A stretch of 64,000 nucleotides of DNA from Chrysochromulina tobinii. Taxonomy: Eukaryota. Below are positions 18,479 to 43,851 of the stretch, one piece after another (the first letter of the stretch is position 1; every line of letters begins with the position of its first letter). The notes under the pieces are model-generated. The model did no database searches, was not told the DNA's origin, and saw only the letters and a program-made list of their open reading frames with translations. The translations under genes and the position numbers were made by a program. Where the stretch lies: assembly GCA_001275005.1 (NCBI GenBank), contig JWZX01003325.1, forward strand, positions 1 through 64,000. Reading direction: 5' to 3'.

Positions 18479-18543
<65 letters not shown>

Positions 18544-21500: not shown

Positions 21501-22545
21501 TCAACGTACCTTGGTATTGTACTTGAGCGCATCGCAAAGCGGCGCAAGCGCCTTAGCGCCCCATTCGCGCACGTCTACTTCCATGCGGCTGAGCCAGCGG
21601 CGCACGCACAGCAACGCGGGGCTCGTCTCGACGGCTGGTCGGCCGCGCGTCATCACACCTTCAAGCACGTCTTCCGGCTCGGGGAGGCCGTGCTTGTTGG
21701 CGTGCATTGTGTAGCACGTGTGCAGGTTGCCATCGATTGCGAGTGGCGGGAGCCACTCGAGGGGCAGCTGGGCGAGGTTGACGCGCCTGCGTGCACCGGG
21801 CGCAGAAGGACGTGATGACGCGGACGGGTGAGCTAGGGCAGCGAGGCGGGGAGCAGGGGGGGCGGGGGAGCCGTGGGGGGCGGCGGGTAAATAAGGGACG
21901 GCGCCTTCTGAATCGAGGCCGAAGGCGGCCAGTTCCTGCGCGGATGGGGGGCGGATCTCGAGCGGCTCACATGAGACACGCGCAGTGCGCCGTCGAGCTG
22001 CAAACCCACAGGAGGGTCGCCAGCTGGCCCGCGATCTCAATGTTCGCCGAGATACTCCACGGTTCGCGACCGGGCTGCACGAAGTGCAGCGTGGCCTTGT
22101 TGCCCTCGACGACGGTCGCGCCAACTTCGAGGGCGTGGCAAGTGGTCTGCACGGCTGATCCCTTGATGATGAACAGGCGCCCAAAGCCCGTCAGGACCAC
22201 GATGCGCGCGCCAGCGTCGAGGCGCCCGCCGTCTGCTTGCAGCACATTCGCCCATGCGACAAAGAGGAGCTGTTCGCCGCCGTGGAACAAGGCGTGATTC
22301 CTCAGCGGATCGAGGACCGTGGATACGTTCACGAACGGTTTGATGCCCTGTGGCGAGCGCTTGGGGGCGATGAAGATGCAGTGCGGACCAGCAACCAGTG
22401 TGTCATCGAGGACAAATGTCGGGTCTTGGGGCCCTTGGAAGGGACTGAGCGTCTTCTTGACGCGGCGCATAACGGCGCCATCTGATCTCGAGAGCAAGAT
22501 GACCTCATCCTCGCCTGCGTACGATGTGGAGCAGCAGGCACCCAT
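16510..22545 (-). CDS. CARMIL-like PH/LRR protein fused to a C-terminal GT49 (LARGE/B4GAT1-type) glycosyltransferase domain, ~1,920 aa; introns 21787-21970 and 21421-21509
   Basis: N-terminus MGACCS; CARMIL-like LCDALKYNTK|FLSF; RI-type LRRs (LEYLDVSANRLGDAG, LKTNRTLTALRIDHNGL); GT49 motifs ISLVTQCSLDRL, YPINALRNLA, FLIDVDF, VVPAFE, YEPYVI, YDERFTGYGMNK. Both introns are frame-consistent. Confidence 0.8.
18481..18543 (-). repeat. (CAG)n trinucleotide repeat encoding poly-Gln (~21 Q)
   Basis: Uninterrupted ctgctg run on the + strand, within the CARMIL-GT49 ORF. Confidence 0.95.
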
Positions 22546-23079
22546 GGTTGCAGGCCCCCTTGGTTGCTAGCTACCGCGTCGTAGTAAATAAATCTCTGTG
22601 GGAAAACTTGTGTGGGAAAAGGGAATGAAGGCGGCGCGGTTCACACGGCCACGTTCACGTTCACGTTATTTGCCGTCTCGGCAGGACCTTACGGCGGCTC
22701 CGTCCGACGATTCGATTTGCGCTGGCCAGAAGTACATGAGAGAGATTCCGTCGTGTTCCCACCCTCCACTCACCGCGATTTGAGCCTGGTCTCGTAGCTT
22801 CAGCAGGGTCCAGGGACGAGGAACCGGTGGATGTCGCGCTCACCAGGCTGCCTTTGTGTGGTTTGATGAACCGCAATCACCAACCTACGCGACCAAGTTT
22901 GCCTAGGCGTCTCGCAATTTGCGAACACATCGATGCATGTCGTGTCTCTCCCGACTCCCCCGCCCCGCTAATTCTCTCACACATTCAATTCCCAAACAGG
23001 TGTGGGGTTAGGGCCTTATAAACATGAAAAATAGTAGACCACTCCCCCTTGGGTCAAGACAGCTCCGCTACGGGCGCGG

Positions 23080-23394: not shown

Positions 23395-26300
23395 TCACGC
23401 CCCCGGCAGGTCAACCTGGAGTGGGTGGCCCGTCGACACCCGCTCCGCGATCGCCTCATGAAGGTGAGCCAGCCCCGCGGACTCGAGCGGATTGTGTAGC
23501 AAGCGCAACACAGCCAAGGCCGAGTTGGCACGTAGCGCGATGGCGAGTGCAGCGGCACCTTCACTGGTGACGCCGGCTGCGCTCAGATTGACCTCGCGCA
23601 CCATAGCATTGTGCTTGAGCACACCGGCGAGCATGCAAATCGCGCCCGTGCCCATGGCCGTCTCCTCCAGGCTGAGCTTCCTGATGCCCTCGAGCACATC
23701 GAAGGCGTTGGTGCGTGCGAATCGCAGGCTAAGAGGGCTACCGGGGTCGAGAAGGCTCCTGCCCAGCGTCCCGAGCACTGAGTCGGCCACCGGCGGCCAC
23801 GCTCGCACGTCGAGGAACGTGAGCGACGCATTGGCATGCAAGCCAGCGCACAACACTTTCCAATCCACCATCTGCAGCCCAGTATAGCTCAGGTCGAGCG
23901 ACCTCAGCACGCAGCTCGGGCTGCGCAGCCACGCCGATGCGGCCGCACTCGCATCATGCTCAAGAGGATTCGAGCCCAGATGCAGCGCCGAGACCATCTT
24001 GCCCATGCGTGACGAGTGGATCTCGGAGATGAGCTTGGCGGCCTCGAGCCTCTTCTCGAAGTGGCCATACTCACGGCTGCCAAGCTCGAGGCTTCTCCTT
24101 CCCTGAGGATCACCGTCCTCGGCCGTTGTGGACGAAACCTCGCTGTAGTCGGCCGTTGCGGACGAAAGCGCGCCGGAGGCGTCGGGTCGGAAGTGGACCC
24201 ACTCGCGAAAGTTGAGCCCGAAGCTTTCCATCGAGAGTGTCGCCGCCTCAGGCAGCGGCAGCGCCACGTCAGAGGAGCCTATGAGCACGAATCGGTGGCC
24301 GGAGAGCATCAGCTCCTTGTGAACGAAGGCCTCGATGATCGGTCCCATGAAGGCCACGTCATCTTGCAGCGCGTACTCGACGACCACCACGAGCGCGCAC
24401 ATGGAGAGCGCCTGCAGCAAGAGCTCCCGCACTCTGGCGCCCATCTCGGCGCTCTCTCCAAATTTGGAAGCCGCCAGCCCGATGAGCTCGCGCAGCATCG
24501 CGCCCTCGTCGATGAGCTGATGCACGCGGTTCATGTTGGCTGTGATGAAGGATGCAATCACCGCGTGCCGGAGCAGCAGCGGCACCAGCGGCACGGTGCC
24601 CGCCTCGTCGGCATCGCGCAGCGTTGCTGTGAGCTTGTACAGCACGTTCGTCAGCAACCACTCGCGCTGTGCCTGATGCACCGAACCAGCGCGCATTTGC
24701 ATCGGCTCGACGCTGTGGAAGCCCAACGGCCGTTTCGGCGACGGCTCGGCCAGGATGGCGACCACGTCGCGCACGCGGCGCACACCTTCGAGCTTGGGGT
24801 TTGCGGACGCCGTATGCGGCGTTACGAAGACCAACTGCTTCGCCACCTCGACGCGCTTGCCGCTAAAGGCCTCGACGACCGTTTCGTGCGCCTGCAGCAG
24901 CGCCTCACAGTACGCTGCCCGTGCCGCGCGGTAGTCGGACACCGAGCGCATGCAACTCGCAGTGGGGGAGGTGGCGTCCGGCCCGTCCAAGCCCATGCTC
25001 GTGTGGTTATACTGGTTTAGGTCGGCCTCGAGCAGCTGCCCCGTCTCGACCAACTGGAGTTGATGGCGCGCTCCAAACTGGAGCCACTCGACCACCACGG
25101 CGTCCACGAGCCCCGCCTCTTGATGCAAGAAGAGCAGCCGGCACCCAGGCTCGTAGTGCGCCGCCGTGATCGGCCGCACATTGATCGGGCTCGCGTCGAT
25201 GAGCAGCTCGCCGAATCCCGCGAAGACGGGCTGGGCCGGGTCGCGCGCCTTCTTCTTGAAACTCGCCGTCGATTGACGAACCATGTTGCGCGGCTTGGGG
25301 CGCTCGCTGCCCGCCGAGCCGGTGGCTCCGTCGGCCAGTTGAATGTTATCGATGCGCACACGCAGCCGGTCGTCATCGAGAAGCTCGATGACCGTGCCGC
25401 ACCCGAGCAGCGGACCCGATGCGCCGTTGGGCCCGCGGCTCACCACGCCCCCCTCATTGGAGCGCACCTGAAGCCGCGTGCCCTCCGCGCATGCAAACGC
25501 GAGGTGCGGCACGAGCTCGAGGTAGATCGATCTCCCAGAGATCTCCCGGTCGAGCTTGACGATGAGGGTGTAGTCGTCACCGCGCAGCACCTGATGAGAC
25601 AGAGGGAGTGGCAATCAGATGACAATCACATGGCCATCAAATGGCCATCAGATTGGATCCCCGAGATCTTCTGAAGAGGCGGAGGTCATTGTGTGGTAAT
25701 GAGTGCCCGACGAGAGACGATGAGTGGCAATCCAGGGCACTCCAGGGCACTCCAGGCCAATCAAGGCCAATCAGCGTACTGAGGCGAGCTGGCGCTCGTC
25801 ATCAATCATGTGCCACTCGTTCTTCAACTGCAGGCGCCTCTCGAGATCGTCATTGACGTTGAGCAGCTCTCGAGATTCGAATCGGTGCTTCTCGGGCGAC
25901 TGCTTGGCGGAGGCGCGCGGGAGGAGCTTGCCCACGACGTCGTCATTGACGGTGACCAGATCGATCTCGCGGTCGCCCGGTATGGCAACGAGCTCGTCGC
26001 TCAGCACGTGCGCGGCGCCGCAGCAGTTGTAGAGCAGCACCACATGGCCCACGTCGGACACGTGGTAGTGCCGGCTGAGCCCCTCCTTGAGCGGGCGCAG
26101 TGTCGGGCGCTTGGGCCGCGCGTTCAGCTCGCGCTTCGGCCACTTGCCGTTGCGACGCGGGCCGCCATCGTCGCCCTTCTGCTGTCGGACGAAGCTGCCC
26201 TCATCCTCTGGATGCTCGGCAAAGTACTTTTTGAGGGCTGGGACGCCCCCGGTGAGGGAGGTGCCCAGTAAGGGCACCAGATGCCGATCTCGCTGCGCGA

Positions 26301-29300
26301 GGAGCTCGAGATCGTGGTGGAGATTGATCATGTCGCGCGGCAAGGTGCGCAGCTTCGCGTTATCCGAGATGTCGAGCTTGCGCAGCGCGCTCAGGTTGCC
26401 GATCGCGGGTGTGAGTTGCGTCAGGTGATTCGCTCGCAGGTTGAGCGAGCGCAGTTTCGTCAAAGTGCCGATGCTTCCCTGGAGACGCGTGAGCTGGTTC
26501 GATTGCAGATTGAGCTCCTTGAGCGCGAAGAGCGTCCCAATCTTGGACGGGAGCTCCTGCAGCTGATTCCTCTGCAGCGAGAGGTGCTCGAGAGAGCGCA
26601 GCCGGCAGATCACCTCCAGATCGTAGCTCGAGCTGAGCTCGTTCTCATCGAGGTTGAGGGTCTCAAGGTGTGTCATCTTGCTCACCGCCACAAAGAGAGA
26701 CTGCACCGAGCCCATCGGCGGCGCCACGCTGTCGGCCGTGCTTTCGGCCGCGGCCGATGCTGCGCTCAGCACGCTGCCCGCCGCAACAAGCACCATCGTC
26801 GGCGCACGTCCGACGGCCTTGCCAGGCTCGCGCAGCCCGAGGCCGTTCTGACTCAGATCGAGTAGTTTGAGTGGCGCGTGCTCGAGCGCCTCGACGATCG
26901 GCTGCGCGCCGGTGGCTTGCAACCGATTCTTGGCGAGGCGCAGCGATTTGAGCGTCGTGTTGGCACGCAGGATCGCGCTGAGCGTCAAGCCCGAGATCTC
27001 GCCGAGATCGTGGCTGCTCAGGTCGATGGAGACGGCCGCCTGCGGTCCACGTGTCAAGTGAATCGGGATGGTCTTGCCATCGAGCGTGACCGCCGTGAAG
27101 GCCCCGTGCGCCCGGATGCCCTCCGCGAGCGTCCGCATGTCCTCCGGCGCAAAGGTCTCGAGAGGCGCGCTGGCAAGCTCGAGCTCTGTGAGCGAGCTGT
27201 TGTATCGAAGCGCCGTACCGAGCGCACGCACGTCCGCGGCGCGCTCGGCGGCGCGCATGGCGAGGCGCAGCTTCCTCATCGCACCTGTGGGGAAGAGGAG
27301 ACAAGGCGCCGTGGTGAGCGATTGCATGCAAGGCGAGCGCGCACGGCGAGGCGCAGCTCCCTCATCGCACCGTTGTGGCGCAGCAGCCCAAAGAGGAGGA
27401 GCAAGGCGCCTGGCTCGAGGGAGCTCTGCCGGCTCGTGGGGTCGTGCCGAGTGCTGATCAGATCGAGCACGCCGACCTCTTCGGTGATCTCGAGCGTCTT
27501 GGCCTCCTGCTGTGCGCCCGCGGGCAGCGTGACGCTGACATACTTGAGCTTGGCCTGGCACTTGTCCGTGAGCAAGAAGGCGCCGATCCGCTCCATTTGG
27601 TCATCGGTGATCGGGTTATTGCGCAGGTCGACCGACGTGAGCGATCGGTTCTGCGCGAGGCTGCGGAAGAGGAGTACGCCCGAGATCTCATTGCTCGAGA
27701 GATCGAGAGCGCTCAGGGTGCAATGCGGGCTATTCAGCGCCGCCACCATGTTGTCCAGCTTTGAGTCGACGAGGTTATTGGACGCGAGGCAGAGCTTCGT
27801 CAAGTTGGGGCACATGCCGCTAAGCACGTGGTCGAAGAGCTGTGGGGAACCTCGCGCGCCCAGATTGACGCCATTCAAATCGAGCGTGCGCAGCGACGAG
27901 GTCTTGCACGCCTGCATGAGCTCGAGCACTTTGCCGCCCTCGGCGCCCTGGCCAGGGTTGAGGCGCAGGCTCTCGATCTCCTCATTCTCCGAGATGAGCT
28001 CGGCGACGAAGGTGCACATCGCCTTGTCGAGCAGCTCACGGAGAAACTCGGTGGCTGAAGAGGTGCCATCGCTCTTGAGAGATGGGCACAGGTCCACGCG
28101 CGACACCTTTGTCGAGCCGTTGAGGCTCTGCAGGTCGAGCTTGATCTTACGCGCGCGGCTCGGATCTTGCGTGTCCATCTTCTCGAGATAGAGGTTCTTG
28201 AGCGTCTTGTTGGCGCGCAGCGCGATGGCGAGCACATCCACATGCTCGGGCCCGAGTGACTGCAGCGTGAGCGACACAAGGGTGCGGTTCGCCTTGAGCA
28301 GCCCCGCGAGCAGGCACCACGAGCGCGTGGATCGCACTTGCTCGCGATTCTTGAGGTCGAAGGTGATCTCTTTGAGGTACGCCTTGAGGCCATAGTTGCT
28401 GCACAGCCCGAGACGCCCGTGAGGGCTGCTCAGCAGCGCCTTGCCGAGGGTCTGCCGGTCGTCATCTTGGAGTCCTTCGCCCTCGAAATTGAGCTCGGTG
28501 AGCGTCGAGTTGGCACGGAGCAAGCCAGCCAACATGGTCGCGTCAGAGCGGTCGGCATTGGCCGGCCACTGCAGCGACGTTGCGCTCGAGGTGAGGTCGA
28601 ACAAGTCGACCTTGAGCGCGATGAGAAGCGGAGTGGGACGGTGGAGAAGCACGCGCCCAATAGCCTCCTTGGCGCGATTGTCGAGCTTGCCGAATCCGTC
28701 CTTCTCCTCGATCCCGATGTCGGTGAGCGTGGGGTGCTGGCGCAGGAGCCCCGGCAGCTCCTTGCAACGACCTGGCTGGTTGAAGCTCAAGTCGAGCTTG
28801 ATGAGCGACTTGCAGGTGGCCAGCGCGGTGCACACCGCCTTCATCCCCTTGTCGCCCAGCCCATTATTGCTCAGGTCGAGCTCGGTGAGCGTCTCGTTGT
28901 TCGAGAGCGCGCGCGTGAGCTGCTGCTTCTTCCAATCCATCTTGCCGATCAAATTGGAACGCAGCTTCAGCGTACGCAAGGACGTGCCGATCGTGAGGAG
29001 GGTCGAGAGCCCCGCATCCGACTCGTCATTCTCCTCGCCCACCTTGTTGCTTGACAGGTCGAGCGAGCGCAGGTGCGAGGAGGTGAGCAGCCAGAGCGCG
29101 CGCTTACCACCCGGGGTGAGCCTCGCCTCCGGTTCCGTCGCAAAGTCCCAATCGTGCCGCTGGAGCGCGAGCAGGTCGCCCAGCTTGCGCGCGGAGATGC
29201 GGCACGTGTTGTTCATGAACGGGTCGTTGACAAAGCTCGCCGCGCGCACGTCGGTGCTCCAACCGTCCCACTGGCCGTCACGTGCCTTGAGGAAGAGGAA

Positions 29301-32300
29301 CTGCGCGAACAGCCCTTCCTGGAAGGAGAGATGCTTGAACTGGTACTGCGCTTCCGCCTCGTCGGTCTGAGCCTCGAGCGTCTTCATGAGCGGAATGCCG
29401 CCCTCCTCGTTGTTCAGGTGCAACCAGAGCGTGAGTGCCTCGGAGAAGGGCATTTCCTTGAGAAGGGCGCGCGCCACGTCCCGCGCGCCGAACTGGCGAC
29501 GGCCTTGCTGCTGGTTGACTACGGCCACATGGCGCAGCATCACGAGCCCCGTGTTGTGGATCGAACCGCCATCGCGAATGAGCTTCAGGTTCGACTCGGC
29601 GAGCGCCATGATGATGCTGCGCAGTTGCTTTGGCATCGCGAGCTCGCACGCGTTGAGCACCGTCCGCGCTGCACCGTGGCGCGCCATATTCAAATACTTG
29701 GCCGCCTCCCGAAAAATGTCATACAGTTCGTTGTCGCCTCGATGCTGGCCCTGCTCGACGCTCTTGTGCACGGCCATGTCCCCGGTCGTGATGCCCTCGC
29801 CCTGGTCGAGGGATTTCTTGCGTGACTGCTTGCGCTCGCGCTTCTCACTGTCCAGCGACGACTGCACCGCGAGCGCTTTGGTCCGGTCCAGAGCAAACAG
29901 CTGCTGCCAGATCTGCACGAGCGTGCGCGTCGCGAGGGCGTCATCGTACACGATGCCCTCGGCCGAGTTGCCGCCGCCACGCACGCCGGTCACGGCCGTG
30001 TACGCTGTAAAAAAGCGTCGGTCAATGGCATGCATGATCCCCATCTCATACAGCTCGAACTGGTTCGTGGGCAGTTCGGCGAGGTCTTCGCCCCCCGAGG
30101 TGAAGATGAGCACGAGCAGTGAGAGCAGCACGGGGATGCCGGAGGCATCGACGAGGAAGAGCAGCGCAGGCTCGAGCAGCGCGTCGATCCGATCTGGCTC
30201 GAGCTTGCCTTCCATTTGCTGCCGGAAGAAGTGGTAGTGCTCGCTTGCATTCGTGTGGCCCGAGGAGCCGACGGCGAAGATCTCCTTGTAGTGCAGCTCG
30301 CACCGGCACTCGACCTCCGTCAAGCCGTACGTGAGCAGCATCGTGGCCTTGAAGGAGCGGAAGTGCGTAGGGTCGAGAGAGATGAACCCGTTCTGGAGCT
30401 CCGTCATGGTTAGCACGGCGTGAGGCTCTGACTCGATCCTGACCTCGCGTGGGTCGATCGGCCCATGGGCGGCGGGCCCTTGGACGCTCGAGTCCGCGAG
30501 CGCCGCCTCGGGCGCGCCTTCCTCGGCCAAGTTGCCCACGAGGCGCGCCACGAACCAAACGAGCGTCTTGCCCTTCTCAAAGATCACGCGGCAGTGCAGC
30601 ACCTCCGGATCGTCCTTCTGACCTCGGACGATCTCCACGCTGCCCGCGGCGCCCGCGTCTTTCTCGGCGCTGCCCGCGACTGCCTCGGCAAGCGCGTGGC
30701 GCAGAAGCATGTCGAAGACGGCCCAGCGGCGCTCGCGCGGCATCGTCACCTTCTCCTTGGAGTGGCGCACCGACACCGGCGTCTTCGCCGAGGAGGGGAT
30801 TGGCTCGTAGTTCGTCTCCGAGGTCTCGGGGTTCTCCGCACGCACGGGCAGGTAGAGAGCTTCGAGCTCAGATCTGACACCCTCACTCAGCTTCTGGTAC
30901 GCCCTGTCGAGGCCGCGCCGCATCTCGCCGAGGGCGAGCAGGTGGTCGAAGAACTCGGAGCCGCGCATCTGGGTGCCGATCACGGAGCGTTGCTGCTCAT
31001 TCGAGAGCTCCTTCAGGTCCAGCACCGAAAAGTGGCGATCGAGATACGGGTCCATATTCCCAATGCCCTCGACGCGGGAGGTGATGAGCACTCGATTTCC
31101 CGAGGGCACCAGAACGTCTAGGACGAAGGACTCGACCATCCTACGCAGCCCGGCCGCCTCATCGACGCCGTCGAGGATCACGATGAGCGCGCGCAGCTGG
31201 AAGGCTTGCTTGAGCATCTCGGCGACACGCCGATGCACAGCGTCCACGTACGAGCCGAACAGCGCGTGCACACCCTCGCTCGAGCCCGCCGTCGCGTCGC
31301 GGAGCAGGTAGACGATCTGTTGCACGTACAGCACAATCGGGCACAGCTTCATGCCCTTGTGCTCGGACCCTTTGGCGAGGGTCTCTCCCAAAATATACAC
31401 GGCCTGCTTGCACATCCACGTCTTGCCGGTGCCCGGCCCAGCGCGCACGAGGCACGCCTGCGACGGATGCTCGCCACTCCCGCGCTTCGGCGAGGGCATC
31501 GTGAGGATGGAGACGAGCGCCTGCACATTCTTGACCGGCTTGCCCAGGAGTGTGTTCGTCGCGCCGCCTACGGTGGAGGCCTTGACATCCACGTTCACTA
31601 GCTGGTCCTTGATCGCGAGCGTGTTGCCCGTGATCGCGTCCTCGACCTTCTCGTTGCGCGCGACCATGTCGAGGCAGTGCTGCACGCGCTGCTCCTCGTA
31701 GTCGGCCACGGTCTCGAAGCGCGGCTGGCAGTGGTTGTACTCGTTCAGATCTGCCGCCACGATGCTCACCTTGTCCTTCACAGTCATCTCGACCCAATGC
31801 CGATTACCCGCCTTCGGATCGGGTCGGTTGCCCCCTTTGTCATCCTTGCGCCTCTCGCTCGTCTCCTCCCATTCCTTTTTAGGCATCTCGACCACGCACG
31901 CGTCCACGCACTCGTCGTTGTGCAGGTACAAGATGGGGGTCGCCTTGGGGTAGCGCACCGTCGTCGTGGGCACGCATCGATCGGGCCGCGGGTCGACAAT
32001 CTTTTCCTCGGTGGTCGCATCCACACGCACCACGACGGTGTCGTCGCGTAGCACCCGTTGCACTGTCGACACACGGCCGCAATAGTCGCCCGGCGCGATC
32101 AGAGTGAGCCGCGCGCCCACGCAGCACGCGTACGCGAGCCACGGGCTGACCAGCAGGACGGCCCGCTGCACATGTCCCGGACGAAACTGGGGCGCCGTGA
32201 CGGGCGCGCCGCGAAGCGCCACTGCCCCCCCCTTGACGGGTGGAGCCGCTTCGTCCACCTCAATCTCCCATTCGAGCTCGAGCTCCAGCGTGCCTGGCCC

Positions 32301-35300
32301 CTGCCGAAAGTGGTGCACCAATCCGTAGTCGACCCCGGGCAGCCAGCGGTGTTCAAACGAGACACGCTCCTCGAAGGGGAGGCCCTTTTTGGCGGGAATC
32401 TTGACCTTGCCGAGCGTCGCACCATTGCGCGCGAATAGGCTGTACTCGTACTTCTCAGGCAGCGTCGACGTGTCGCCGATGACCAACTTGAAGCGCGCCT
32501 TGTTGCAATTAAAGAGGAGCAGCATGCCCGCCCCAACACCATCGAGCGACGGCGCCTGCACGTGGCGCGACTCTTGCTTGTCCATCAGAGCCGGTGGCCG
32601 CTCTTCGTCGCGAAGCTTGAACTCGCGCACCATCTGCTTCGCGTCCGCATGGTCGATCCTGGGCGGTCTGAGCTTCCTCTCCGGCTCGCGCTCCTCAACG
32701 GGCTTCGTCACTATCAGAGTCGCGGGGCGTTTCACGTCCTTGCCAGCGCGACGAACGGGCGCGCCCGTTACGGCGCCTTCGCGCTTCTCCTCCTTGCTGG
32801 ACCCACGCGCGCTCTTCAACGCCATCGACACGCTCGCTGGGCCTCCGAGGCTACCGCGCAGGGCGGCCGCGCCCGCGTCGCGACGAGTGGCCGTGGTCTC
32901 GGCTGTGGGAATCGTTTTGCGAGCCGTCAAGTTGCCTTCTTTGGCAGCTGATGGCGCCTTTTGTGGCGTCCCCTTGCGCGCGCTGTTGCCGCCCTGGGGC
33001 TTATCGGCATCGACGCTCTCGCCCTCAGCATGGTCCGCCGAGCTGCTGCCCTTTACGGTCGATGCCGTCCGAGGCATCGTATCGGGCGTCGCATTGTTCG
33101 GGTCGCGCGCCGATCGGTCGCCAAGAGAGGGGCGTGGCCCTTTGAACGGGTTCTCGCGCTTCGCGCGCTTCTTAGGTTCGAGGGGAACTCCTGTGGAAAG
33201 GGGGGGGGCGCCGTGGTGAGTACGCGCCTGCATGAAGTGCATCTTTAAGGTTCGAGTGGAGCTCGAGCTGCGGCGGCCGCAGCCGGCTCACCCTCGTTGC
33301 TAAGCGCCAGGGTCGGCATGGGAGGGCTCGACCCCGCACTAGGTGCCGGGGGTTCGGTGCCACCGGCGGAGAGCTCGTCTGCATCACTGACCGGCGTGAG
33401 ATCCGACGGCAGTGGCGGCGGTGTATCGGCTCGCGCGATCGCCCCTGAGGGTGGCGTGGCGGGTCGATCTTCCCCTCGATCTCCATCGATCTCCCCCGAG
33501 CTCGGTCCGTCGTCGCGTACGGCGGGCTGGGATGACCCGTCGCGCGGCGTGTCCTCAATGGGGGGGGTGGCATCGCCGGCATGCTGCTGCGCGGCATGCT
33601 CGTGCACCGCGCGCTTCACAATCTCGAGTAGCTCGGCCGATGCGCGATTGCCATTCAAGTCGATGCTCAGCGGTGAGGGCGTCTTGCGCTGAGAGGCACC
33701 GAGCGCTTTGATGAGCAACTCAAGCGCCGCACTTTGGTACGTTTCAAACGAGACCCACTCACAGTCGAGGTACTCGGTGTACACCCCACATAGCCGCCCG
33801 TTAGCCAGCGAGACGTGGGTGAGGCTTGCGTGTTGGCAGAGCGCCTTGACAAGTGCGTCGAAGCCCTCCGTGTGCCACGTACCAGACGGCAGCCGCCCCG
33901 CAAAGCGAGCGCCGAGCGCCGTGGTGAGCAGGGCGGCGTCCTTCTCCGATGCGCACGCTGCGCGCACCGCCTCGGGCGAGAGAGCAATGCAGAGGAGATT
34001 GGAGGACAGGTCGAGCACGGTGAGGCTGCTCGCTCTGCGCAGCACCTCGGCGAGCAGAGGGGCGCACTCGGCGTCGAGCAGGTTGTCACGCAGGCAGAGC
34101 GTGCTGAGGCGCGTGCACACGGCCGCAACGTCCACGAGCAGCCTGCATGCACCGACGCCGAGTTTGTTGCGCGCGAGATCGAGGGAGGTGAGCGCGTGCG
34201 GCTCGGCCGACGACAGTGTCATGTGGCCACTCCGGCCGAGTGCGCTCAGCACAAGGGCCGCACCCTCGTCCTTGAGCCAATTGTCGTTCAGGCAGAGCGT
34301 GCTCAGCCGAGGGCAGCTCTCGAGGCGCATCGCGAGCAAGCCAAGCCCGTCAGGGCTCCACGAGCCTCGCCCAAGAGGGTCTATGCCGCACAGGCCGTTG
34401 CGGGAGAGGTCGAGGAGCTCAACATGGCGCGAGAGGGCGCCTTCGAGCGCTCGAGCTACCTGCCGAGCGCCTTCAGAGGCCAGACAGTTGCCCGCGAGGT
34501 TGAGCGCGCGCGCAGGCGGCTCCGGGTCCTCGGCTAGCACCTGCAATATGAGGGGCGCCATCAGAGGTCATCAGCGGGCACATCGGCGGGCATCAGCGGC
34601 ACTCCTGGGCGGGCATCAGTCAGTAGCGGGCATCAGTCGGCTGGGGTCGTCGGCCAGACCTTGGCAAGAGCATACATCTCGTCGCCGCGGAGATTGTTGT
34701 CACTCAGGTCGAGGGAGTGCGCCGCGTGCAAGAGCAACGAGATGGCACGCAGCGCCGTCGGACGATGGCCTCCCAGCTTGGCACGCAGCTCAAGGGCAGC
34801 ATCCGTCTTTGAGAGCCCGCACGCCTGCAGCAGGCCGTGCCCGAACGCGCGCCCCATTTCGGAGCCGTGGCGCAACGTGTTGCCCCACCACGCCGACCAA
34901 CGCCATGGCTCGGCTGCCCGGGGTATAAGCCGCTGCCCGTTGCAGAGCGCGCGTGCCGTGAAGAACTCCTGGAAGGAGAGGTGCGACGACTGCATCTCCA
35001 GCGGAGAGGCGCTCAGCAAGCTGAGCAGCGGCAGCCGGTCTTGGCGCACTCGCTCGCGGATCCCTTGCATCGCGTCCTGCCACTCTTGGGGGAGCTCGCC
35101 GATCGCCTTGAACACCTCCGTCTGCATGCGACGGTGCTCCACCATGCTCATCGGGCGGGAAAGTTGGTTACGCAGCCCCGCTTCATTGGGCGGTCCGACG
35201 CCCACCGAGGCGCGAGCCCTCCCCCAGAGGACCGCCCCCTTTTCCGAGGAGCGCGCTTTGTTGAGAGAGGCCATATTCCGTGTGCCATCAACGGTCGACG

Positions 35301-38300
35301 CTCGAGCTCGAGTCGACGCCCTGGATGGAGTGCCGTCTGGCGAGCTCAGATGGCTGCACGAGCCCAAATTAGGAAGGTGGCTCGACGAGTCCGTGCGTGA
35401 GCGTAGCAGATCCCCCCCCCATGGAGTAGCAGATCCCCCAGCGAAGCGATCGCTCGCAGATGCCCCTGACCGGCGGTTGAGCGACATGATACGATCGAGT
35501 TCGGCGGGCTGGACGAGGCCGATGGCGGCAAGGGCCACACGCACCTCGGTGATGATACGCTTCTCGGCTGCGTGGGCTTGGAAGAAAGTTGCCTCGAGGA
35601 GCTCACGCATCCGCTTGCCTCCCGCGGCGTGCCTTGTCTTCTCACCGCGATCCTTTCGTTCTAGTTGGTCCAGCATAGCCGAAGCCGCCACGTCGTACAG
35701 CTCAGTGATCGTCCTAGGCATCGAGATGCCCATCTCGCCGCCGTCGCTGCCACCGGTCTGCGCGGCATCGGCGACGCCGAGAGCGTACATGCTGCCCTGC
35801 TTGCCCGGCTTGCCAGCCTGCTCATCCTTCGAAGCTTGGCGCGACATGAGGATCGAGATGACCATCGAGAGCATCAGCGGGTTACCGGTCACACGATGGC
35901 CCGTATCCTGGTCAATCGGTACCGTCGTCTTCACGTACTCGATCAGCCGTTGCGCCGCTGTCAACCCAAGCACCTGTTCGCCATCAGCATGCAACCCGAG
36001 ACCACGAGAGCGAGGCCATCAGCCGCAATCCGAGCGCAAATTCAGTGGCATCTGAGGGGGGCATCTGAGGGGGCCATCTGAGGGGCATCCGATTGGGGCA
36101 TCGCAATCGCGCACCGGCTCGACGCGCGATCGGATGACCACATGCTGCTGCTCATCACTCAACGGCTTGAGCTGGAGCCGCCGGAAGTGCGCCTTAATGA
36201 AGAGCTCCTGTGGAAAGGGGGTAGGCGCCGTGGTGAGCACTTGCATGCAGCGCAGAGCACTCGAGAAGTCTCCGACAAACTACCCACCTCGGGCAGACCG
36301 TTCGGGCGCGAGGTGACCACAATGACGAACCCCTGCGGCGCGAGCACCTCAACGATGTGCTGCTCGACGCGCTGGCGGGCGTGCCCGCCCTCGTCGATGC
36401 CGTCGATGAGGAGCAGCACGCGCCGCGCCACCATCGCCTGGCGCAGGAACAGGTATAGCTCCGAGCCGAGGCCGTGCACGAGGCATAGGTAAGCGTCGAC
36501 CCAGTTCCACGCACGCTCGAAGGCGGACACCACCTGTGAGGTTCGACGAGATCGCAATCAGATGAGATCGCAATCAGACGAGATCGCAATCGCAATCAGA
36601 CGGACACAACCTGAAGTTCAATCGCAATCAGTGGGGCATGAAATCGGCCATTCCACTCTATCGTGTATCTTGCCCCAATGATTGCGATTTCATGCCCCAC
36701 TGATTACCTTTTAGGGCCATCTCACGCCATAAAAGGTAATCAGACCCTACATGGTAATCAGTGCCCATTCAGAGTCCACTCCGTGCGCCCAATCAGTTGC
36801 AGACATGCAATCAGTTGCAATCAGTTGCAGACATGCAATCAGACATGCAAGTTGCAGACATGCAACACCCACCGATGGCTCCTTCGAGAGCAGCAGCTTC
36901 TGCAGATCCTGCACCTTGATGAGCACCGGCAGCACCTCCGCTCCGTCAAGGTCGAGGGAGTGCACCACAAGCTGTGAGAGCAAGCACGTCTTACCGGCCG
37001 CTGGCCCTGCCGTGAGCAGCACGCACGAGGCCAACGGTGGGGGCTGCGAGCGCCGCACGCGCCGCGCATGCATCGTGTGCAGCCACCGGCACAGCGACTC
37101 GACACTAGTGATCTTCAAGTAGTCGTCCTCGTCCGGCGCAGGGTCGCGCTCAAACGCAGACGCAACGTCCGACACGGTGCCCGCCACGGCGCCCGCCTTG
37201 GTCGGGGCTTTGGTCGGGGATTTGGTCGGTGATAGGCCGGTCCCCGGCTGCTCGCTCTCCGCCAGCAGGTTCGCGCCCGCAATCTCGATTGGGACGCAGT
37301 GCTCCTTGACGTCGAGCCGCTTGCCGGAGAGGGCGTCCACGATGGACGCATGCTGGGCGCGCATCGTACGCGCGTGGCGCACCTGATGAGGGAGGCAATC
37401 AGGGAGGCAATTAGGGAGGCAATTAGGGCGCGCATCGTACGCGCGTGGCGCACCTGATGAGGGAGGCAAATAGGGCTCATCAGAAGTCCTCAAGCTGGGC
37501 GCGCATCGCTCACATCACACACGCAGGGCGCACCCAGAGCTCCCAATTAGGGAGGCAATTAGGGAGGCAATTAAGGAGGCAATTAGGGAGGCAATTAGGC
37601 GCACCCAGAGCTCCCGAAACGATCGGAGGGGGATCTCGCGCGGCCCATGGTTGAACGGGTCCAGGTCAAGCTCGACCAGCTGGCCTTCGCTGTTCTCGTC
37701 CTCGAAGAGCAGCAGCTTGTGCCAACCGCCCCCCACCGGTTCGACCACGTTTGCATCGCACCAGTCGGCGGCTCCGTGGATGCCCTCGACGCGAACGAAC
37801 AACGGCTGGCCGGCCGCGTACTGGCGGAGGCCGCGGCAGCCCGAGGAGATGAACATCTTGCAAAAGTGCGCCTCCATCTCCTCGCGCTCCTTGGGCGCGA
37901 GCTCGTCCCGAGATTGCATCTCGCGCAGAGCTCCCTCGAGCTCGGCTTGCCGTCTCTCGAGGGTCGCTCGCACCGCCACGAGGACCTGCAAGTCCAAATA
38001 GGCTTGCTTCCGTATCTGCAGCAGCTCGATCGCCTCCTGCAACAGCATGTGCTCGCGCTGCAGCCCGCGTAGCCGCAGCGCCGTGCGCGCCTGCTTGGCC
38101 ACGTCGAAGCCCATGCGCCAGCTGGTCGCGACGCCCATGTCGGAGGAGACGGAGGGGGCGGCGGCGCTGGCATCGGCGGCAGCGGAGACGGTCGCGGAGG
38201 AGGCAGCGGGGGCTTCCCGGAGCATCCCTGAGCTCGATTTCGTCGAACTCGTCGAATTCGTCAACACTCGAGAGATCCGTCCCGAGAATGAGCGGGAGCG

Positions 38301-41300
38301 ACCAAGCGCCGTGCTGTGGGGCTTCCTCTGTAGGACGAGCAGATCTAAGTCGTCTCGGGGCCATCGGAGCTGGAGGCCAGGGCCGCGCACGCCACCCAGG
38401 GGTGCACCTGGCTGAGCTTCGTGACTCTCGCCCGGCGCGCCACGGCCATCGCCCTCCACGCCTCCCTTGCCCGCGCCCGATACGGCGCTCGAGCTCGCCC
38501 TTCGAGCTCGTGGATCGAGCTCGAGGGCGTGCTCGATCTCGTCGCGTGAGATCATGCGCCCCTTGCGCCCCGAAGCTTCGATGCGGTGCTCGGGCGGTGC
38601 GGACCCAAGTTTATGGAGCGCCGCTACCACGGCAATCCGCGCGTGCTCCTGGAGCCCAATCTCGTAGTGCAACTGGGCAAGCGAGATCTCGATCTCCTCG
38701 ATCTCCTCGGGCTCCTCGATCTCCTCGGGCTCCGAGATCTCGGCCTCCGAGATCTCGGGCTCTGAGATGTCGGGCTCTGAGAAGAGAGTCGAGTGCGCGC
38801 TGTCCCGGTGACCGTTACGTGCGTCGCCCCGTGTTTGGAGCCCTTCGGTGCGCCACTGTTCTGCGGCGAGAGATTCGCCCCTAGATTCACGCAGACCGTT
38901 ACGTGAGAGACCGTTGCGTGACTGGGCGAGAGATTCGCCCTCACGATCGAGCTCGATCAGAGCTGCGGCGATCTCGTCTGCCTGCTGCCGCTGGGCCCGG
39001 ACTCGTCGCGCCGTCTCGAGCGCCTCCGCCGTGCCCGATACGGCGCTCGAGGCCTCCTCGGCATCCAGGTGTGCGCCTTCGGCTTCGAGGTTCATGATGA
39101 ATACTTCAAGGCCCTCGGCATTCAGGTGACCGACACTGCTCTGGGCCGCCTCGCGCTGTAGTGTGAGTAACGTCTCCTGCAGCCGGCGCGTCTCTGCGTG
39201 CAGTCCCTCGGAGATCCTTTGGAGATTTTGGAGATCCGCCTGCCGTCGGCGCACCTGGGTGCGACGGTACTCGTACCGGAGCTGCTGGAGGCGCTGTGCA
39301 CGCCCATCGTGTGACCGTCTGATTGCGTGCTGATGACGCCCCTCGTGTAGCCGTCTGATTGCATGCTGATGATACTCAATCAGGTTGCTCGTGGTGCGCA
39401 GCTCACTGCTGAGATCGCGCACGCGCCGCACCCGCCGCTCGAGCACGGGTGACGAAACCTGCGCCTGCAATCGCTGGGCCGCCGTTGCGAGCGCCGCAGC
39501 CGACATGGACGGCGCGCCGCGCAGCAAGTCACGGAGCTCCTCAGCCACTTTGACGTCACGCCGTCCCTGTTCGACGATGGTCTCGAGGTACTTACCGGTC
39601 GGATCGGGGCGCCACGGCAGCACCTGATGAGGGACGCAATTCAGAGTCCTCAGCGGTCCTCAGCGGTCCTCAGGGCAATCAGAGGCCATCAGAGGCCATC
39701 AGAGGCCATCAGAGGCCATCAGAGGCCATCAGAGGCCATCAGAGGCCATCAGAGGCCATCAGAGGTCATCAGAGGCCATCAGAGGCCATCAGAGGCCATC
39801 AGAGGCCATCCTCCGCGGTGCTATGCGGCCATCCGAGATGGCAACGATTGGCAATCGCGGTCCTCCGTGGCAACGAGTGGCAATCGCGGTCCTCCGTGGC
39901 AACGAGTGGCAATCAACCTACCAGCTGGCTGAAGATGTCAAACGAGAGCGGCTGTACCACAAGCTCGGGGGCGAGGACGCCAACGACGCCGATGGTTTTC
40001 GGCCCGAGCTGCGAGCCCACCACGAGCCGCTCAGCACAGCGCGTTTGGGCGGCGGCACCGTCCTCGTGGCCATCAGTGCTCGCACTGGGTCGCAGCAGCA
40101 TGGGAGCGCCCTCTGCGAGCATCAGCGTGCTCTTGAAGGACGCTGCTACCATCGGCGGGGGACGCGGCCGGCGCGCGAGCACTGTTCGCAGAGCGTCGGC
40201 GCATCGGCGCACTGTGTGCCATGCGACGCGCTTCTTGTCGGTGGATAGGTCGACGTAGCGAAGGGTTGAGAGCGAGCGGTGCAACATCACAAAGAGGAAA
40301 TTGCATGCATGTAAGTCCGCAGGCTCCACCGCCGCATGCGCCTCTGTCGGGTCGTCTGAGCGCGAGCGGTGGCTGCACTTGGCCACCAGCTGGAAGGCGA
40401 GCTTGAGCACGCGTGCCGCGAGATCGAATGTCATTCGCTGGTGCTCGGCCCATGTGGACGGCGCGACCTGGTCAAACATTTCCCACAGCTCGAGCGGCTC
40501 GGGCGGTGGCTCGGGCAGCTGCGAATCGAGGGGCATCTTGTCACTTCCCCACAGTAGCCGATCGACGATCTCGCACGCCTCAGTCATGCGGCGCTCGCAC
40601 ACGGCTGCGTCGTGGACCAAACCGTCCTCGAGCAGCTGAAGCAGCCTCGCGTCGCCATCCTCAATGCAAGCCGCGTGCAGCTCGGACCGAGATCGCAACT
40701 TCGATTTGCGCTTCACGAAGGAGGAGGAGGAATCGTCCTGTCCGCCGCGCGCCGAGAGAGAGCCCAACATATTCCTCAGGCCGTGCTCCTCCGCGTGCTC
40801 CTTCGACGTCCTTGACGCCCTACTCTTGAACGACGAGTGCTCGTCAGCCGGGGCGACGACCTTGAACTTGAGTCGGTTGGCAACATCCTCCTTGATGCCC
40901 AGCCTGTCCTCGAGCTGGCGCGAGCTCGCTGCGTGCACTTCGTCAATCGACATAGGGATCGGATAGTACTCAAACAGGAGGACGCTCACCATCTTGGCCG
41001 CGTCGTGGAAGGGCATGTTCACACCGGCCTTGGCAAAGTCGATGAGCCACAGGCGGTCCTTGACGTCGACGAGCACATTGGCCGCATTCAAGTCACCATG
41101 CTGGTACAAGCGGAGTGGCTGCCACTCGGCAAGCCACGCGACGTCGTCGCCGCCCGTGCCGGACGAGATTGCCTCGAGCTGATGCAGTAATGAGACGAGC
41201 GGCTGGCAATTCACATCCGACCAGACGAGGCTCGGCACGTCGAGCACAAATGAGGCGGCAAACTTGTCGCGCTTGGCCACGCGAGACACATCAATGATGC

Positions 41301-43232
41301 GTTTCTGCTGCAGCTGCGCCAAAGCTGCCTGGACGTTGCTCGGTGGCTCATACTCCCGAGCACGCTCGTCCCGCACCCAGATGGCCGAGCCGGCGGGCGG
41401 CTTGTCAAAGACGATCACCATCGCCTTGGCGGTCGCGCGCAATTGCGTCGCAATCAGCCCGTCGAGCGCGACTGCATTGTAGAGGTCCCGCTGCACGGTC
41501 TTCAAGGCGAGATTGGCGAGCGCGCCGCCATGCCCCCACAGGTCATTCAGCACATCCATCGCCTCGCGTTCCCACTTGATCGTCGGTGGGCCCAAGGAAG
41601 CCTTGAGGGAAACGTGCGATTGCGCAGCCTCCTCCTCGGGTACTTTTTGGTGCATCTCGCGGATGAGTCGCTTCTTGAATGTGGCGAGCAGCTCGACCTC
41701 GAGCTTACCGAAGAATTCGGGCAGCACCCAGCATGCACCTGCCATCTCGAGCACCACTGCGCCGTAACCGATCGACTCGTCGACCACGCTGCGCGAGGGC
41801 GTGCCACTTGCGGAGGCCAGAGCGCGCGCTGAAGCCGCGCTGCGCGCCGTGCGCGCCGTGGCTGTCTCGCGCGCCGTGCCCAGCGCCATGTCGCGCCCCT
41901 GGCTGTCGACAAACTCAGGACCGCGGATGAGCTTGATGGCCTCGGCGCCCACGAGGTGCGAAATCTCCTCGGTGCGGCGCACCTCTTCGATCATCGAGTC
42001 TGCATAGTCGAGCTTGGTCACGGTAGGCTCATTAGGACGGCCCTGCATGTCGCGGCTGTCCGTCTGCAGCACGAGCGAGCCGGAGAAGCCGCCGTGCAGC
42101 TTGGTCGCGGTCACGTGCGCACGGCCGGGGAAGAGGCGCTCGAGCAGCCTCACGAGGGGTTGTTTCGCATAGTTCGGCTGCGCGAGCACGCCGCGCAGCT
42201 CAATGACGGACGAGAAGAAGCGCGGCGGCAGGTATCCATTCTCATCACCCTCGCACAGGATGACGCCATTCGTCGACTCGAAGAAACGGATCCCGTGCTC
42301 AAGCGCACTCGAGATGTCCACCCAAATGTACACAGCGCAGTCGTGGCGCATCCCCGAGATGACCGCCTCCTCCCCTAGCAAACCTTTGGCCAGGTGGATG
42401 TGGTGCCGTTCCATCTTATGCAGCCCCTGCGCGAGGATCTGCCGGAGCGCCGTGATGGTTGTGCCGTGCACCGCAAATGGGACGCTCGCCTCTTTTGTTT
42501 CGCTGTCAAACGTGATCAGTGTGCCAATCTGCTCGCCGACCTGCTTCATCGAATGGCCCTGCGCCGCCCGGATCTGGTACACTCCACCAGCCGTCGGCTG
42601 CTCACGCAACTCAAAGCGCTGCTTGTCATTGAGCCCCACCATCGCGTGCACGTGCTCCTCGGTCCACGTGCACGGCTCGCGCGGCGGTTCCGATTCGAGT
42701 GCCAGCTCGGCCTCGCGACGGTTGACATGCGCGATCGCATCAGTGAGTAGGACCCATCCGTCCGTGTCAATCGGCACGTCATATTCTTTGGCCTTGTGGC
42801 GGAGCAGCTTGCTCATCAGCTTGGAGAGCTGCACGTCATGCACCTCGCCGTACTTGCCTTTTATAATCAGCTCCGTCCCAGGCGCCGCCACGTCGTCGGC
42901 CGGCGGCGGTCGCAGCTGTGCGTCCGAGGCTGTGTCGGCGGCGAGGTGGGCTGCGGCTATGTCGATAGCTGGGAGCTGCTGCCTGGCGCTGACGTGACCC
43001 TTGGCGGCGTGGGAGGTGGCGGCGGCGGCGGCGGCGGCGGCGCCACCCTTCGGGCCGCGAGGCGAGGGAGCTCGCTTCCCGCGAGGCGAGGCTGCACGCT
43101 TGTCCCAAGATTCAACCCGAGATTCATCCCGAGATTCATCCCGAGGCGTGGCAGCTCGCTTCCCGCGAGGCGAGGCAACACGCTCGTGCGGCGCTGCGCT
43201 GCTGCTACCGTTGCTGCTACTGCTGCTGCCAA

Positions 43233-43277
<45 letters not shown>

Positions 43278-43851
43278 CTGCAATCGGAGCCGCCACGCAT
43301 TTGATCAACGGCCATGCGGCCTTGAGCTCGGGAGAGCGCGTGTCGAAAGCGCCCTCGCCGTACGATACAAAGGGCCAGTGCTCTGACCAGCCCTCCGAAT
43401 ACGAGACAAAGCCAATCGATTCCTCGCAGTCCGGGAGCGGGACTGGCTTGAGCGCCGCTCCTGGCAGACTGGGTGCCAATGCGGCTGCGTCCGCTGGTCG
43501 CAACCCAGCCTTAGCTAACAAGTGACGTGCCACCACAACGATCGCTCGCTCAGAGGTGTTTCGCTTGGCCATGGTCAGCGCACGCTTGATGGCTAGCTCG
43601 AGCTCGGCCAACTCCGTTGCGGAGGCTGCAGGCTGGCTCGAGGAGATTACTGCTGCAGTGCCAGCGGGGCGCTTACCACCGTGCCAATCGAGCAAGAACT
43701 GGCCGAGGAAATGCAAGCGTTCGGCAGAGCTGCGAGGACTGCGAACCGCCAGGGCTGCGTTCAGCGCCAGCTGCACCTCGCGCCGCTGCTCCAGCCAGCT
43801 CATCGAAGTGACGGGGACGCAGGGCACTTGGTGCAATTTGGAGCCCTGCAT
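23395..43851 (-). CDS. Giant NLR-like (STAND/NACHT-LRR) protein, ~6,290 aa: Tpt1/KptA - APH/TCAD9-like kinase - coiled coil - 3x[linker-NACHT-LRR]; introns 39624-39921, 37383-37604, 36534-36872, 36208-36287, 35974-36114, 34541-34659, 33191-33291, 27285-27370, 25591-25779
   Basis: Nine GT-AG introns join ten consecutive ORF-track segments with correct phase; spliced length is 18,882 nt, divisible by 3. Motifs: Tpt1 LLRH/DKQRF/IRAAQGHS/HGT/MERHHIHLA; kinase GGFSGS, HGDLNAANVLV, LIDFA; Walker A GPAAGKT and GPGTGKT; Walker B LLLIDGIDE and IVILDGVDE; TSR sensor; HLSFQE twice; many LxLxxNxL repeats. Confidence 0.8.
36208..36287 (-). mobile_element. Introner-like intron, second family: TGCATGCAAGTGCTCACCACGGCGCC...TTCCACAG 3' end
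   Basis: A near-identical ~25-bp core occurs in introns of four unrelated genes (about 6301-6327, 21441-21468, 27304-27330, 33207-33233, 36225-36249, 48921-48945, 48980-49004). Confidence 0.6.
39678..39810. repeat. Intronic 10-bp tandem repeat (ATCAGAGGCC)n, ~13 copies
   Basis: Directly visible inside intron 39624-39921. Confidence 0.95.
42200..42840 (-). other. Tpt1/KptA (RNA 2'-phosphotransferase, PTS_2-RNA) domain within the giant gene
   Basis: LSKLMSKLLRH, DGWV, NDKQRFEL, IRAAQGHSM, VHGTT, GLHKMERHHIHLA, ISGMR, FFESTNGVILCEG..GYLPPRFF. Confidence 0.92.

What the first reader, a model, noticed from the sequence alone, without database searches (positions are those of the whole stretch)
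23395..43851. Giant Tpt1-kinase-(NACHT-LRR)x3 NLR-like gene: a candidate algal immune/conflict system
Seen: ten ORF-track fragments join through nine canonical, phase-correct introns into one ~6,290-aa protein. It has N-terminal Tpt1/KptA and APH-like kinase domains, a coiled coil, then three NACHT-LRR units. Known: NACHT-LRR proteins are STAND-class immune receptors whose N-terminal domain is usually the effector. Tpt1 is an NAD+-consuming ADP-ribosyltransferase-fold enzyme that can ADP-ribosylate nucleic-acid phosphate ends. Inference: this is an NLR with an NAD+-dependent nucleic-acid-modifying effector and a kinase, possibly antiviral. I do not recognise this architecture as described. Automated annotation would probably split it into several hypothetical genes.
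Basis: partly seen in the sequence, partly recalled or inferred. Interest (0 to 1): 0.92.

Follow-up and report, generated by a model that had tools for sequence, protein, structure and literature searches.

The report
Giant algal NLR with Tpt1-kinase head
This is a real, spliced 20-kb algal gene for a 6,293-residue protein built like an animal immune receptor (two intact ATP switches plus leucine-rich repeats), whose front end pairs an NAD-using RNA-end enzyme with a small-molecule kinase and likely acts as a defence trigger of a kind I could not find described.

Summary
The gene is real. Ten exons give an open 6,293-aa frame. A distant locus (L011) carries the same domain order in two ORFs.

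- Only two NACHTs are intact; the third has lost its P-loop.
- NACHT2 holds an inserted RelA/SpoT-fold domain (Z about 11-12). It is decayed here, but 17 of 45 aligned inserts keep the motifs.
- Tpt1 and the TCAD9/APH-like kinase both keep their catalytic residues.

The gene looks like a fusion of two old families. One is a kinase-NACHT-repeat family found in haptophyte, dinoflagellate, labyrinthulid and chlorophyte proteins, where a Nudix-like domain often replaces Tpt1. The other is a NACHT(RelA)-LRR family that often ends in Roc-COR.

Best reading: an NLR-like switch whose effector is a coupled kinase-Tpt1 unit (phosphorylate, then ADP-ribosylate). The immune role is inferred from architecture only; a non-immune signalling scaffold remains a strong rival. 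Ten literature searches found no description. New variant of a known kind; interest 0.72.

The parts
23395..43851 (-). Whole gene: 10 exons, 9 GT-AG introns, 6,293 aa
   Evidence: same domain order in L011
42187..42849 (-). Tpt1/KptA RNA 2'-phosphotransferase domain (aa 335-555); R351, H352, R412, H462-G-T464, R482 match human TRPT1
   Evidence: Pfam 1.2e-49; PDB alignment 1e-31; fold Z 15.8 to mouse TRPT1; positions
40162..42165 (-). TCAD9-like, APH/choline-kinase-fold small-molecule kinase (aa 563-1230) with GGFSG, K613, HGDxxxxN 918-925, IDF 937-939
   Evidence: Pfam TCAD9 57.5 bits, APH 27.1 bits; Tpt1+kinase model pLDDT 86.6; Z 10-11 to maltokinase, APH, choline kinase
37854..39566 (-). 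Long, variable linker rich in E/R/Q/A/L, coiled-coil-like by eye (aa about 1330-1900)
   Evidence: sequence; no Pfam hit; no predictor run
34672..37841 (-). Small beta domain plus NACHT unit 1 (Walker A aa 2109, Walker B 2195, TSR 2227, GNP 2296, HLSFQE 2597); spans introns 2-5
   Evidence: profile match 7.7e-139; Pfam NACHT 2.2e-4, below cut-off
33593..34764 (-). LRR block 1
   Evidence: Pfam LRR_6 5.6e-7
31707..32549 (-). Three small conserved beta-rich domains of unknown identity, repeated in front of unit 3
   Evidence: no significant PDB sequence match
29112..31706 (-). NACHT unit 2 (Walker A aa 3705, Walker B 3792, TSR 3824, GIP 4138, HLSFQE 4407)
   Evidence: fold Z 13.7 NOD2, 13.1 NLRC4, 12.9 NLRP3; Foldseek NOD2 9.8e-4
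30237..30758 (-). RelA/SpoT synthetase-fold domain inserted in NACHT2 (aa about 3932-4105); K..R..K motif lost, DxxR changed to ExxH
   Evidence: Z 11.8 SpoT, 11.7 SAS2, 11.0 Rel and CapRel; motif tables
26206..29111 (-). LRR block 2 (LRR_6-type repeats, then LRR_8-type repeats); many relatives continue from here into Roc-COR
24097..26058 (-). Unit 3: repeat of unit 2's beta domains, then a decayed NACHT with no Walker A/B
23398..24069 (-). LRR block 3, C-terminus
   Evidence: Pfam LRR_6 1.2e-3, weak; 38-40% identical in L011, P0157, P0161
39624..39921 (-). Intron 1 (298 nt, 10-mer and 29-mer tandem repeats)
   Evidence: skipped in X1-X3
33191..33291 (-). Intron 7 (101 nt), joins unit 1 to unit 2
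   Evidence: skipped in 6 of 6 RNA runs
27285..27370 (-). Intron 8 (86 nt); its first 34 nt nearly duplicate the start of exon 9; the only junction without a listed RNA joint

Best explanation
The gene encodes one giant NLR-like protein whose leucine-rich repeats likely sense an invader or damage signal, whose two intact NACHT ATPases would then switch on and oligomerise, and whose N-terminal kinase and Tpt1 are predicted to act as one effector. Proposed chemistry (inferred): the APH-like kinase phosphorylates a hydroxyl on a nucleic-acid end or a ribose/NAD-derived metabolite, and Tpt1 then uses NAD+ to ADP-ribosylate that phosphate. This would cap RNA/DNA ends or release ADP-ribose cyclic phosphate, and so halt growth or kill the infected cell. 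The decayed RelA-fold insert and the dead third NACHT would be scaffold or sensor remnants. Shown: gene structure, splicing at 8 of 9 introns, domain order, catalytic residues, conservation. Inferred: trigger, oligomerisation, substrate, coupling, immune outcome.
For: Effector-NACHT-LRR order, with NOD2/NLRC4/NLRP3 as top folds for unit 2. Tpt1 and kinase active sites are intact. The Tpt1+kinase model has pTM 0.82 over 898 aa, which hints at a fixed packing. All 6 relatives with an eroded Tpt1 (P0011, 19, 20, 21, 32, 61) also changed at least one kinase catalytic residue. A Nudix-like domain, another nucleotide/ADP-ribose-type fold, takes Tpt1's place in 21 relatives. The family is modular: C-terminal LRR, ankyrin+DUF6829, HEAT, TIR, WWE or Roc-COR, with a patchy spread over protists, as is typical of conflict systems. 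Print (passages): aminoglycoside-kinase-like small-molecule kinases are predicted effectors in bacterial ternary conflict systems (PMC8195603); Tpt1 ADP-ribosylates 5'-phosphate RNA and ssDNA ends (PMC8883491); bacterial NACHTs defend against phage (10.1101/2022.07.19.500537); a NACHT gene and LRR genes rise in virus-recovered G. huxleyi (PMC12489294).
Against: No infection, expression-change or biochemical data. No PADLOC hit in 8 of 8 pieces. The gene is transcribed in all 6 RNA runs laid, with no sign of what triggers it. The core is slow-evolving (NACHT1 53-74% identical in distant relatives), and the LRRs were not shown to be under diversifying selection. L011 keeps Tpt1 motifs but has kinase K>R and N>Q, against strict coupling. 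The six co-eroded relatives may be only 1-3 independent events on a poorly resolved quick tree. About 15% of family kinases lack a catalytic residue (D 89/105, N 90/105, K 69/82), so some members work without catalysis. The Nudix label is below Pfam's cut-off, in 2 of 13 proteins scanned. The kinase substrate is unknown.
Confidence: 0.45

Rival explanations
1. A non-immune signalling scaffold: a constitutive STAND/ROCO-like hub for cytoskeleton, flagellum/haptonema, calcium or life-cycle control, in which most enzyme domains act as binding modules.
For: Relatives carry EF-hands, C2, formin FH2, rotamase and Roc-COR. Many pseudo-enzymes occur. The dead third NACHT is kept in 7 sequences at about 29-40% identity. 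Transcripts are present in 6 of 6 RNA runs laid.
Against: An intact Tpt1 and a TCAD9-type kinase have no obvious cytoskeletal role. Domain swapping at both ends, TIR/WWE partners and patchy spread fit conflict better.
Confidence: 0.28
2. An immune or stress receptor in which Tpt1 (and Nudix in relatives) is the sensor, reading ADP-ribose, NAD+ or damaged RNA ends, and the kinase alone is the output.
For: Tpt1 and Nudix-like domains alternate at the same position, and most Nudix boxes look decayed. The kinase-NACHT pair is the constant core (36 of 36). Nudix domains are known ADP-ribose sensors in NrtR factors (PMC9503650, passage).
Against: Tpt1 keeps all 11 scored motif residues here and in P0002 and P0153, which a binding-only role would not need. 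LRR sensors are already present.
Confidence: 0.22
3. Two or three separate neighbouring genes, or a mis-assembly.
For: No RNA contig spans the gene; intron 8 has no listed joint. Unit-2 genes of the Roc type stand alone in other loci. X15 has an 11-nt insertion in exon 8.
Against: Junctions 1 and 7 are spliced in 3 of 3 and 6 of 6 runs. Single ORFs bridge Tpt1 to LRR1 (P0007, L011), unit 1 to 2 (P0158, P0184, P0193, P0201, P0207, L011) and unit 2 to 3 (P0157, P0161, P0177, P0178, P0187, L011).
Confidence: 0.04

Closest known systems
Animal and fungal NLRs (NOD2, NLRC4, NLRP3) and bacterial NACHT defence proteins
   Same: N-terminal enzyme region, NACHT module, C-terminal LRR; unit 2 folds like NOD2 (Z 13.7, rmsd 4.7, 313 aligned)
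   Different: Two intact NACHTs from long-separated clades (100/100 support) plus a dead third, in one chain; Tpt1+kinase head; an enzyme fold inserted inside the NACHT; 11-16% identity
Tpt1/KptA/TRPT1 RNA 2'-phosphotransferases
   Same: Both lobes and motif residues; 37% identity to mouse TRPT1 in the structural alignment
   Different: Fused to a kinase and STAND ATPases; eroded in some paralogs. The only KptA fusion I saw in print is KptA-Nudix in Bodo saltans virus (PMC9503650, passage)
TCAD9 kinase of bacterial vWA-MoxR-VMAP ternary conflict systems
   Same: Pfam TCAD9 above cut-off; APH-like fold
   Different: Best stretch covers about 70 of 429 profile positions; eukaryotic, fused to NACHT; no close prokaryotic or viral relative found
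ROCO (LRR-Roc-COR) proteins
   Same: 11 relatives match unit 2 and LRR2, then continue into Roc(-COR)
   Different: This gene has unit 3 in place of Roc-COR
RelA/SpoT synthetases and toxSAS enzymes (SpoT, RelP, CapRel)
   Same: Fold of the NACHT2 insert (Z 11-11.8)
   Different: Catalytic motifs lost in this gene; retained in 17 of 45 aligned inserts

Membership tests
NLR (NACHT-LRR) | NACHT module with Walker A, Walker B, sensor, GxP and winged helix (units 1 and 2) | tested here: met
   motifs in order; unit 2 fold Z 13.7 to NOD2; unit 1 not modelled but matches the same profile; Pfam NACHT below cut-off; the HLSFQE winged-helix label is recalled
NLR (NACHT-LRR) | Intact NACHT in unit 3 | tested here: not met
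   no P-loop motif; profile aligns only aa 5707-5854
NLR (NACHT-LRR) | LRRs C-terminal to the NACHT | tested here: met
NLR (NACHT-LRR) | Ligand-triggered oligomerisation and immune output | not testable with these tools
   no functional data
Tpt1/KptA | RNA-lobe Arg-His and Arg, NAD-lobe HGT and Arg | tested here: met
   identical to human TRPT1 at these places; that these are the catalytic residues is recalled
Tpt1/KptA | NAD+-dependent phosphotransfer or ADP-ribosylation | not testable with these tools
   needs assay
APH/ELK-like kinase (TCAD9) | Gly loop, Lys, HGDxxxxN, DF motifs and fold | tested here: met
Bacterial ternary conflict system (TCAD9 context) | vWA-MoxR-VMAP partner genes | tested here: inconclusive
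   only 4 neighbouring ORFs scanned, none such; no whole genome held
ROCO | Roc-COR tandem in the protein | tested here: not met
   no Roc or COR hit in the 9 ORFs scanned; the region after aa 5417 is unit 3
RelA/SpoT synthetase | Synthetase fold | tested here: met
   Z 11.8, rmsd 3.3, 114 aligned, on a model of mean pLDDT 62.9; Pfam gives no hit; Atlas leads only
RelA/SpoT synthetase | Catalytic Lys/Arg, Asp and Glu motifs | tested here: not met
   lost in this gene relative to fuller relatives; mapping to RelA's named motifs is recalled

The most novel reading that the evidence does not exclude
Aquatic protists have a widespread, undescribed NLR-like immune family with nucleotide-chemistry effectors: a kinase-plus-Tpt1 unit that phosphorylates and then ADP-ribosylates nucleic-acid ends, Nudix-kinase variants, and NACHT-ROCO hybrids that make a ppGpp-like alarmone or modify tRNA with a synthetase embedded in the NACHT switch itself. 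It would be a candidate antiviral suicide system of bloom-forming algae.
Probability: 0.27. Interest if true: 0.92.

Novelty: new variant of a known kind. Interest (0 to 1): 0.72.

Why it matters
How microalgae sense and resist the giant viruses that end blooms is largely unknown (PMC12489294, abstract start and passages). This gene gives a concrete, expressed candidate receptor with two assayable enzymes. It also shows three things I found in none of ten searches: Tpt1 as an NLR head, a RelA/SpoT fold inserted in a NACHT, and NACHT-ROCO hybrids. Even if the role is not immune, the kinase-Tpt1 unit may show a new job for Tpt1 beyond tRNA splicing. Databases name the pieces 'RanGAP', 'nlrc3' or 'dihydropyrimidinase', so the family is hidden from annotation.

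Tried and rejected
- No own genome was held, so paralogs could not be counted.
- Intron-8 donor 27344 was rejected by frame.
- PADLOC: 0 of 8 pieces. NCBIfam added no new family.
- Kinase profile against PDB sequences: nothing under E 0.2.
- Prokaryotic genomes: 4 weak catalytic-loop matches only, E 4e-5 to 4e-4. Viral contigs: 0 of 38 candidates.
- Pfam finds no RelA_SpoT in the window pieces or in 11 relatives; ESM Atlas gave leads under 0.9 only.
- P0152 against PDB sequences: none, so the Nudix label rests on two sub-threshold Pfam hits and a self-built profile.
- The small beta domains have no PDB sequence match; my SH3-like and C2-like working labels are unproven. A Dpy-30-like look of aa 15-120 (recalled pattern) had no Pfam hit.
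- The '60 of 60' kinase motif count was selected on the motif itself, so I dropped it for the alignment-based counts.
- Blastp self-comparison of the protein showed no internal repeat, so the units are not a recent tandem duplication.
- No two-chain prediction of Tpt1 with the kinase was obtained, so their contact is untested beyond the single-chain model.
- Earlier scan findings: nothing in 4 look-ups.
- Literature (search listings only unless noted): Tpt1+NACHT; TCAD9 (29); NACHT/haptophyte/LRR/NLR; KptA/STAND/effector; NACHT with haptophyte genera; NACHT+algae+Roc-COR+immune, 0 papers; NACHT+haptophyte+protist; Tpt1 fused kinase conflict; NLR microalgae ROCO; alarmone synthetase+NACHT. None describes this architecture. 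Term look-ups in PMC7159879 (TCAD, KptA: 0 hits) and PMC4580454 (ROCO, NLR, LRR: 0 hits) were blank. Supplements were not opened and subscription papers are not searched, so a listing there cannot be excluded.
Full report
1. Observation. The minus strand at 23395-43851 holds ten exons that join through nine GT-AG introns into an open frame of 6,293 codons. Eighteen public runs hold half or more of the sampled words of 34001-43950; I laid 7 of them. The six RNA runs have contigs almost identical to the window that skip introns 1-7 and 9. X15 behaves like DNA of a related strain and keeps the introns it covers. Limits: these are contigs, all RNA runs are of one year and library type and may be one campaign, none spans the gene, and intron 8 has no listed joint. 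Intron 8 begins with a near-copy of the next exon's first 34 bases, which could hide the joint.

2. Independent support from relatives. P0007 (53% identical over the query region) has Tpt1, kinase, NACHT and LRR in one ORF. P0158, P0184, P0193, P0201 and P0207 run from unit 1 into unit 2; P0157, P0161, P0177, P0178 and P0187 run from unit 2 through unit 3. Of 32 metagenome loci found with the unit-2 alignment, one, L011, carries the whole order in two ORFs of 2,294 and 3,799 aa at 28-59% identity in most domains; its own splice was not tested. Named unit-2 relatives are from Chrysochromulina tobinii and C. parva, so the window is probably haptophyte (inference).

3. Anatomy. Tpt1 (aa 335-555) keeps the residues seen in human TRPT1. 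The kinase (563-1230) scores above Pfam's TCAD9 and APH cut-offs and folds like maltokinase, APH and choline kinase (Z 10-11), with all motifs intact. NACHT1 and NACHT2 have Walker A, Walker B, sensor, GxP and HLSFQE motifs. NACHT2's best folds are NOD2, NLRC4 and NLRP3 (model pLDDT 62.9). Between its sensor and GxP motifs lies a domain whose best folds are SpoT, RelP/SAS2, Rel and CapRel (Z 11.0-11.8). Here that insert is short and has lost its motifs, whereas 17 of 45 aligned inserts keep K..K and DxxR. Unit 3 repeats unit 2's beta domains, but its NTPase has no P-loop. The correct description is two live NACHTs and one dead one.

4. The family. A five-sequence kinase profile finds 776 representatives at E 0.001 or better, 292 at 1e-10; I examined the best 150. 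All 36 kinase-bearing relatives of 1,400 aa or more also have a NACHT-type match. In front of the kinase stands Tpt1 (18 relatives, fragments included), a Nudix-like domain (21) or something else. Behind the NACHT stand LRR, ankyrin+DUF6829, HEAT, TIR or WWE. Named members come from Chrysochromulina, Prorocentrum, Hondaea and Cymbomonas; no close prokaryotic or viral relative was found. The 47 unit-2-type NACHT rows lie on one side of a 100/100 branch from the 38 others (only rows with an intact Walker A were included; midpoint root). Eleven unit-2 relatives end in Roc(-COR) instead of unit 3, and Roc-type loci show no kinase or Tpt1 in the 1.5-10 kb held upstream. Seven of the 9 Roc-tailed proteins with data keep the full insert motifs; none of the 6 unit-3-tailed sequences with data does (a blank may also be alignment failure). 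The simplest history (inference) is a fusion of a Tpt1-kinase-NACHT-LRR gene to a NACHT(RelA)-LRR gene, with decay of the synthetase once a new head was in place.

5. Mechanism. By analogy with NLRs, the repeats sense, the NACHTs switch and the head acts. Tpt1 enzymes transfer ADP-ribose from NAD+ to 2'- or 5'-phosphate ends (PMC8883491, passages), so an adjacent hydroxyl kinase could make Tpt1's substrate. Three hints fit coupling: a confident two-domain model (pTM 0.82), joint erosion in 6 of 6 relatives with a decayed Tpt1, and a Nudix-like fold at the same place in other clades. Against: L011 breaks the pattern, the six may be few events, about 15% of the kinases are pseudokinases, and nothing here tests infection. 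I give 0.45 to the coupled immune effector, 0.28 to a non-immune scaffold, 0.22 to Tpt1 as sensor and 0.04 to separate genes.

6. Comparison and novelty. It works like an NLR and meets the structural tests for units 1 and 2; immune function is untested. It is not a ROCO and not an active RelA. What I saw in print: passages of PMC12489294, PMC8195603, PMC8883491, PMC9503650, PMC10910872 and 10.1101/2022.07.19.500537; blank term look-ups in PMC7159879 and PMC4580454; listings of ten searches. None describes Tpt1-kinase-NACHT, a RelA fold inside a NACHT, or this family. Supplements were not opened.

7. Verdict. A real and conserved giant gene, a new variant of the NLR/STAND kind, and an entry point to an unannotated protist family with assayable enzymes. 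Interest 0.72; 0.92 if the immune nucleotide-chemistry reading holds (probability 0.27).

Noticed in passing
window 40102-40636: RNA runs X1-X3 hold a contig with at least 26 listed substitutions and several small insertions over the kinase C-lobe (11 non-synonymous, 7 synonymous codons among those scored), while the rest of the gene is almost identical. It is neither P0001 nor P0002: a close paralog or a converted allele.
   Followed up: partly
window 27429: Run X15 has an 11-nt insertion in exon 8, which would shift the frame unless compensated; possibly a broken allele in that strain.
   Followed up: no
window 24592-25156: Of 13 listed X15 substitutions in unit 3, 8 are non-synonymous (only the shown rows): relaxed or diversifying selection, sample too small.
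   Followed up: partly
window 43846-43931: A possible 86-nt GT-AG intron overlaps the ATG at 43851; P0002 starts close to the Met at 43803, so the true start may lie 16 codons later.
   Followed up: partly
window introns 4, 7, 8 and 48991: These share CTCACCACGGCGCC before the acceptor; other introns share CCCTCATCAG ends and 10-29-nt tandem repeats, and several begin with a short copy of the next exon's start. Other RNA contigs share the motif (loose ends at 36223-36252). It looks like a genome-wide intron style.
   Followed up: partly
P0159, P0167, P0171, P0265; L001, L005, L007: NACHT-(intact-looking RelA/SpoT insert)-LRR-Roc-COR proteins of 3,100-4,600 aa in Chrysochromulina and metagenomes; worth a study of their own.
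   Followed up: partly
P0076, P0083, P0086, P0089, P0104, P0146: Nudix-like-kinase-NACHT-ankyrin-DUF6829 proteins of 3,400-4,500 aa, one named from Prorocentrum.
   Followed up: partly
window 16513-22566 (minus strand): The downstream neighbour has LRRs and a Glyco_transf_49 domain (4e-50), another unusual LRR-enzyme pairing; gene structure not checked.
   Followed up: no
P0205; P0179-P0183: Unit-2-type NACHT joined to formin FH2 and rotamase domains (P0205), or with EF-hands inside the NACHT insert (P0179, P0180).
   Followed up: no
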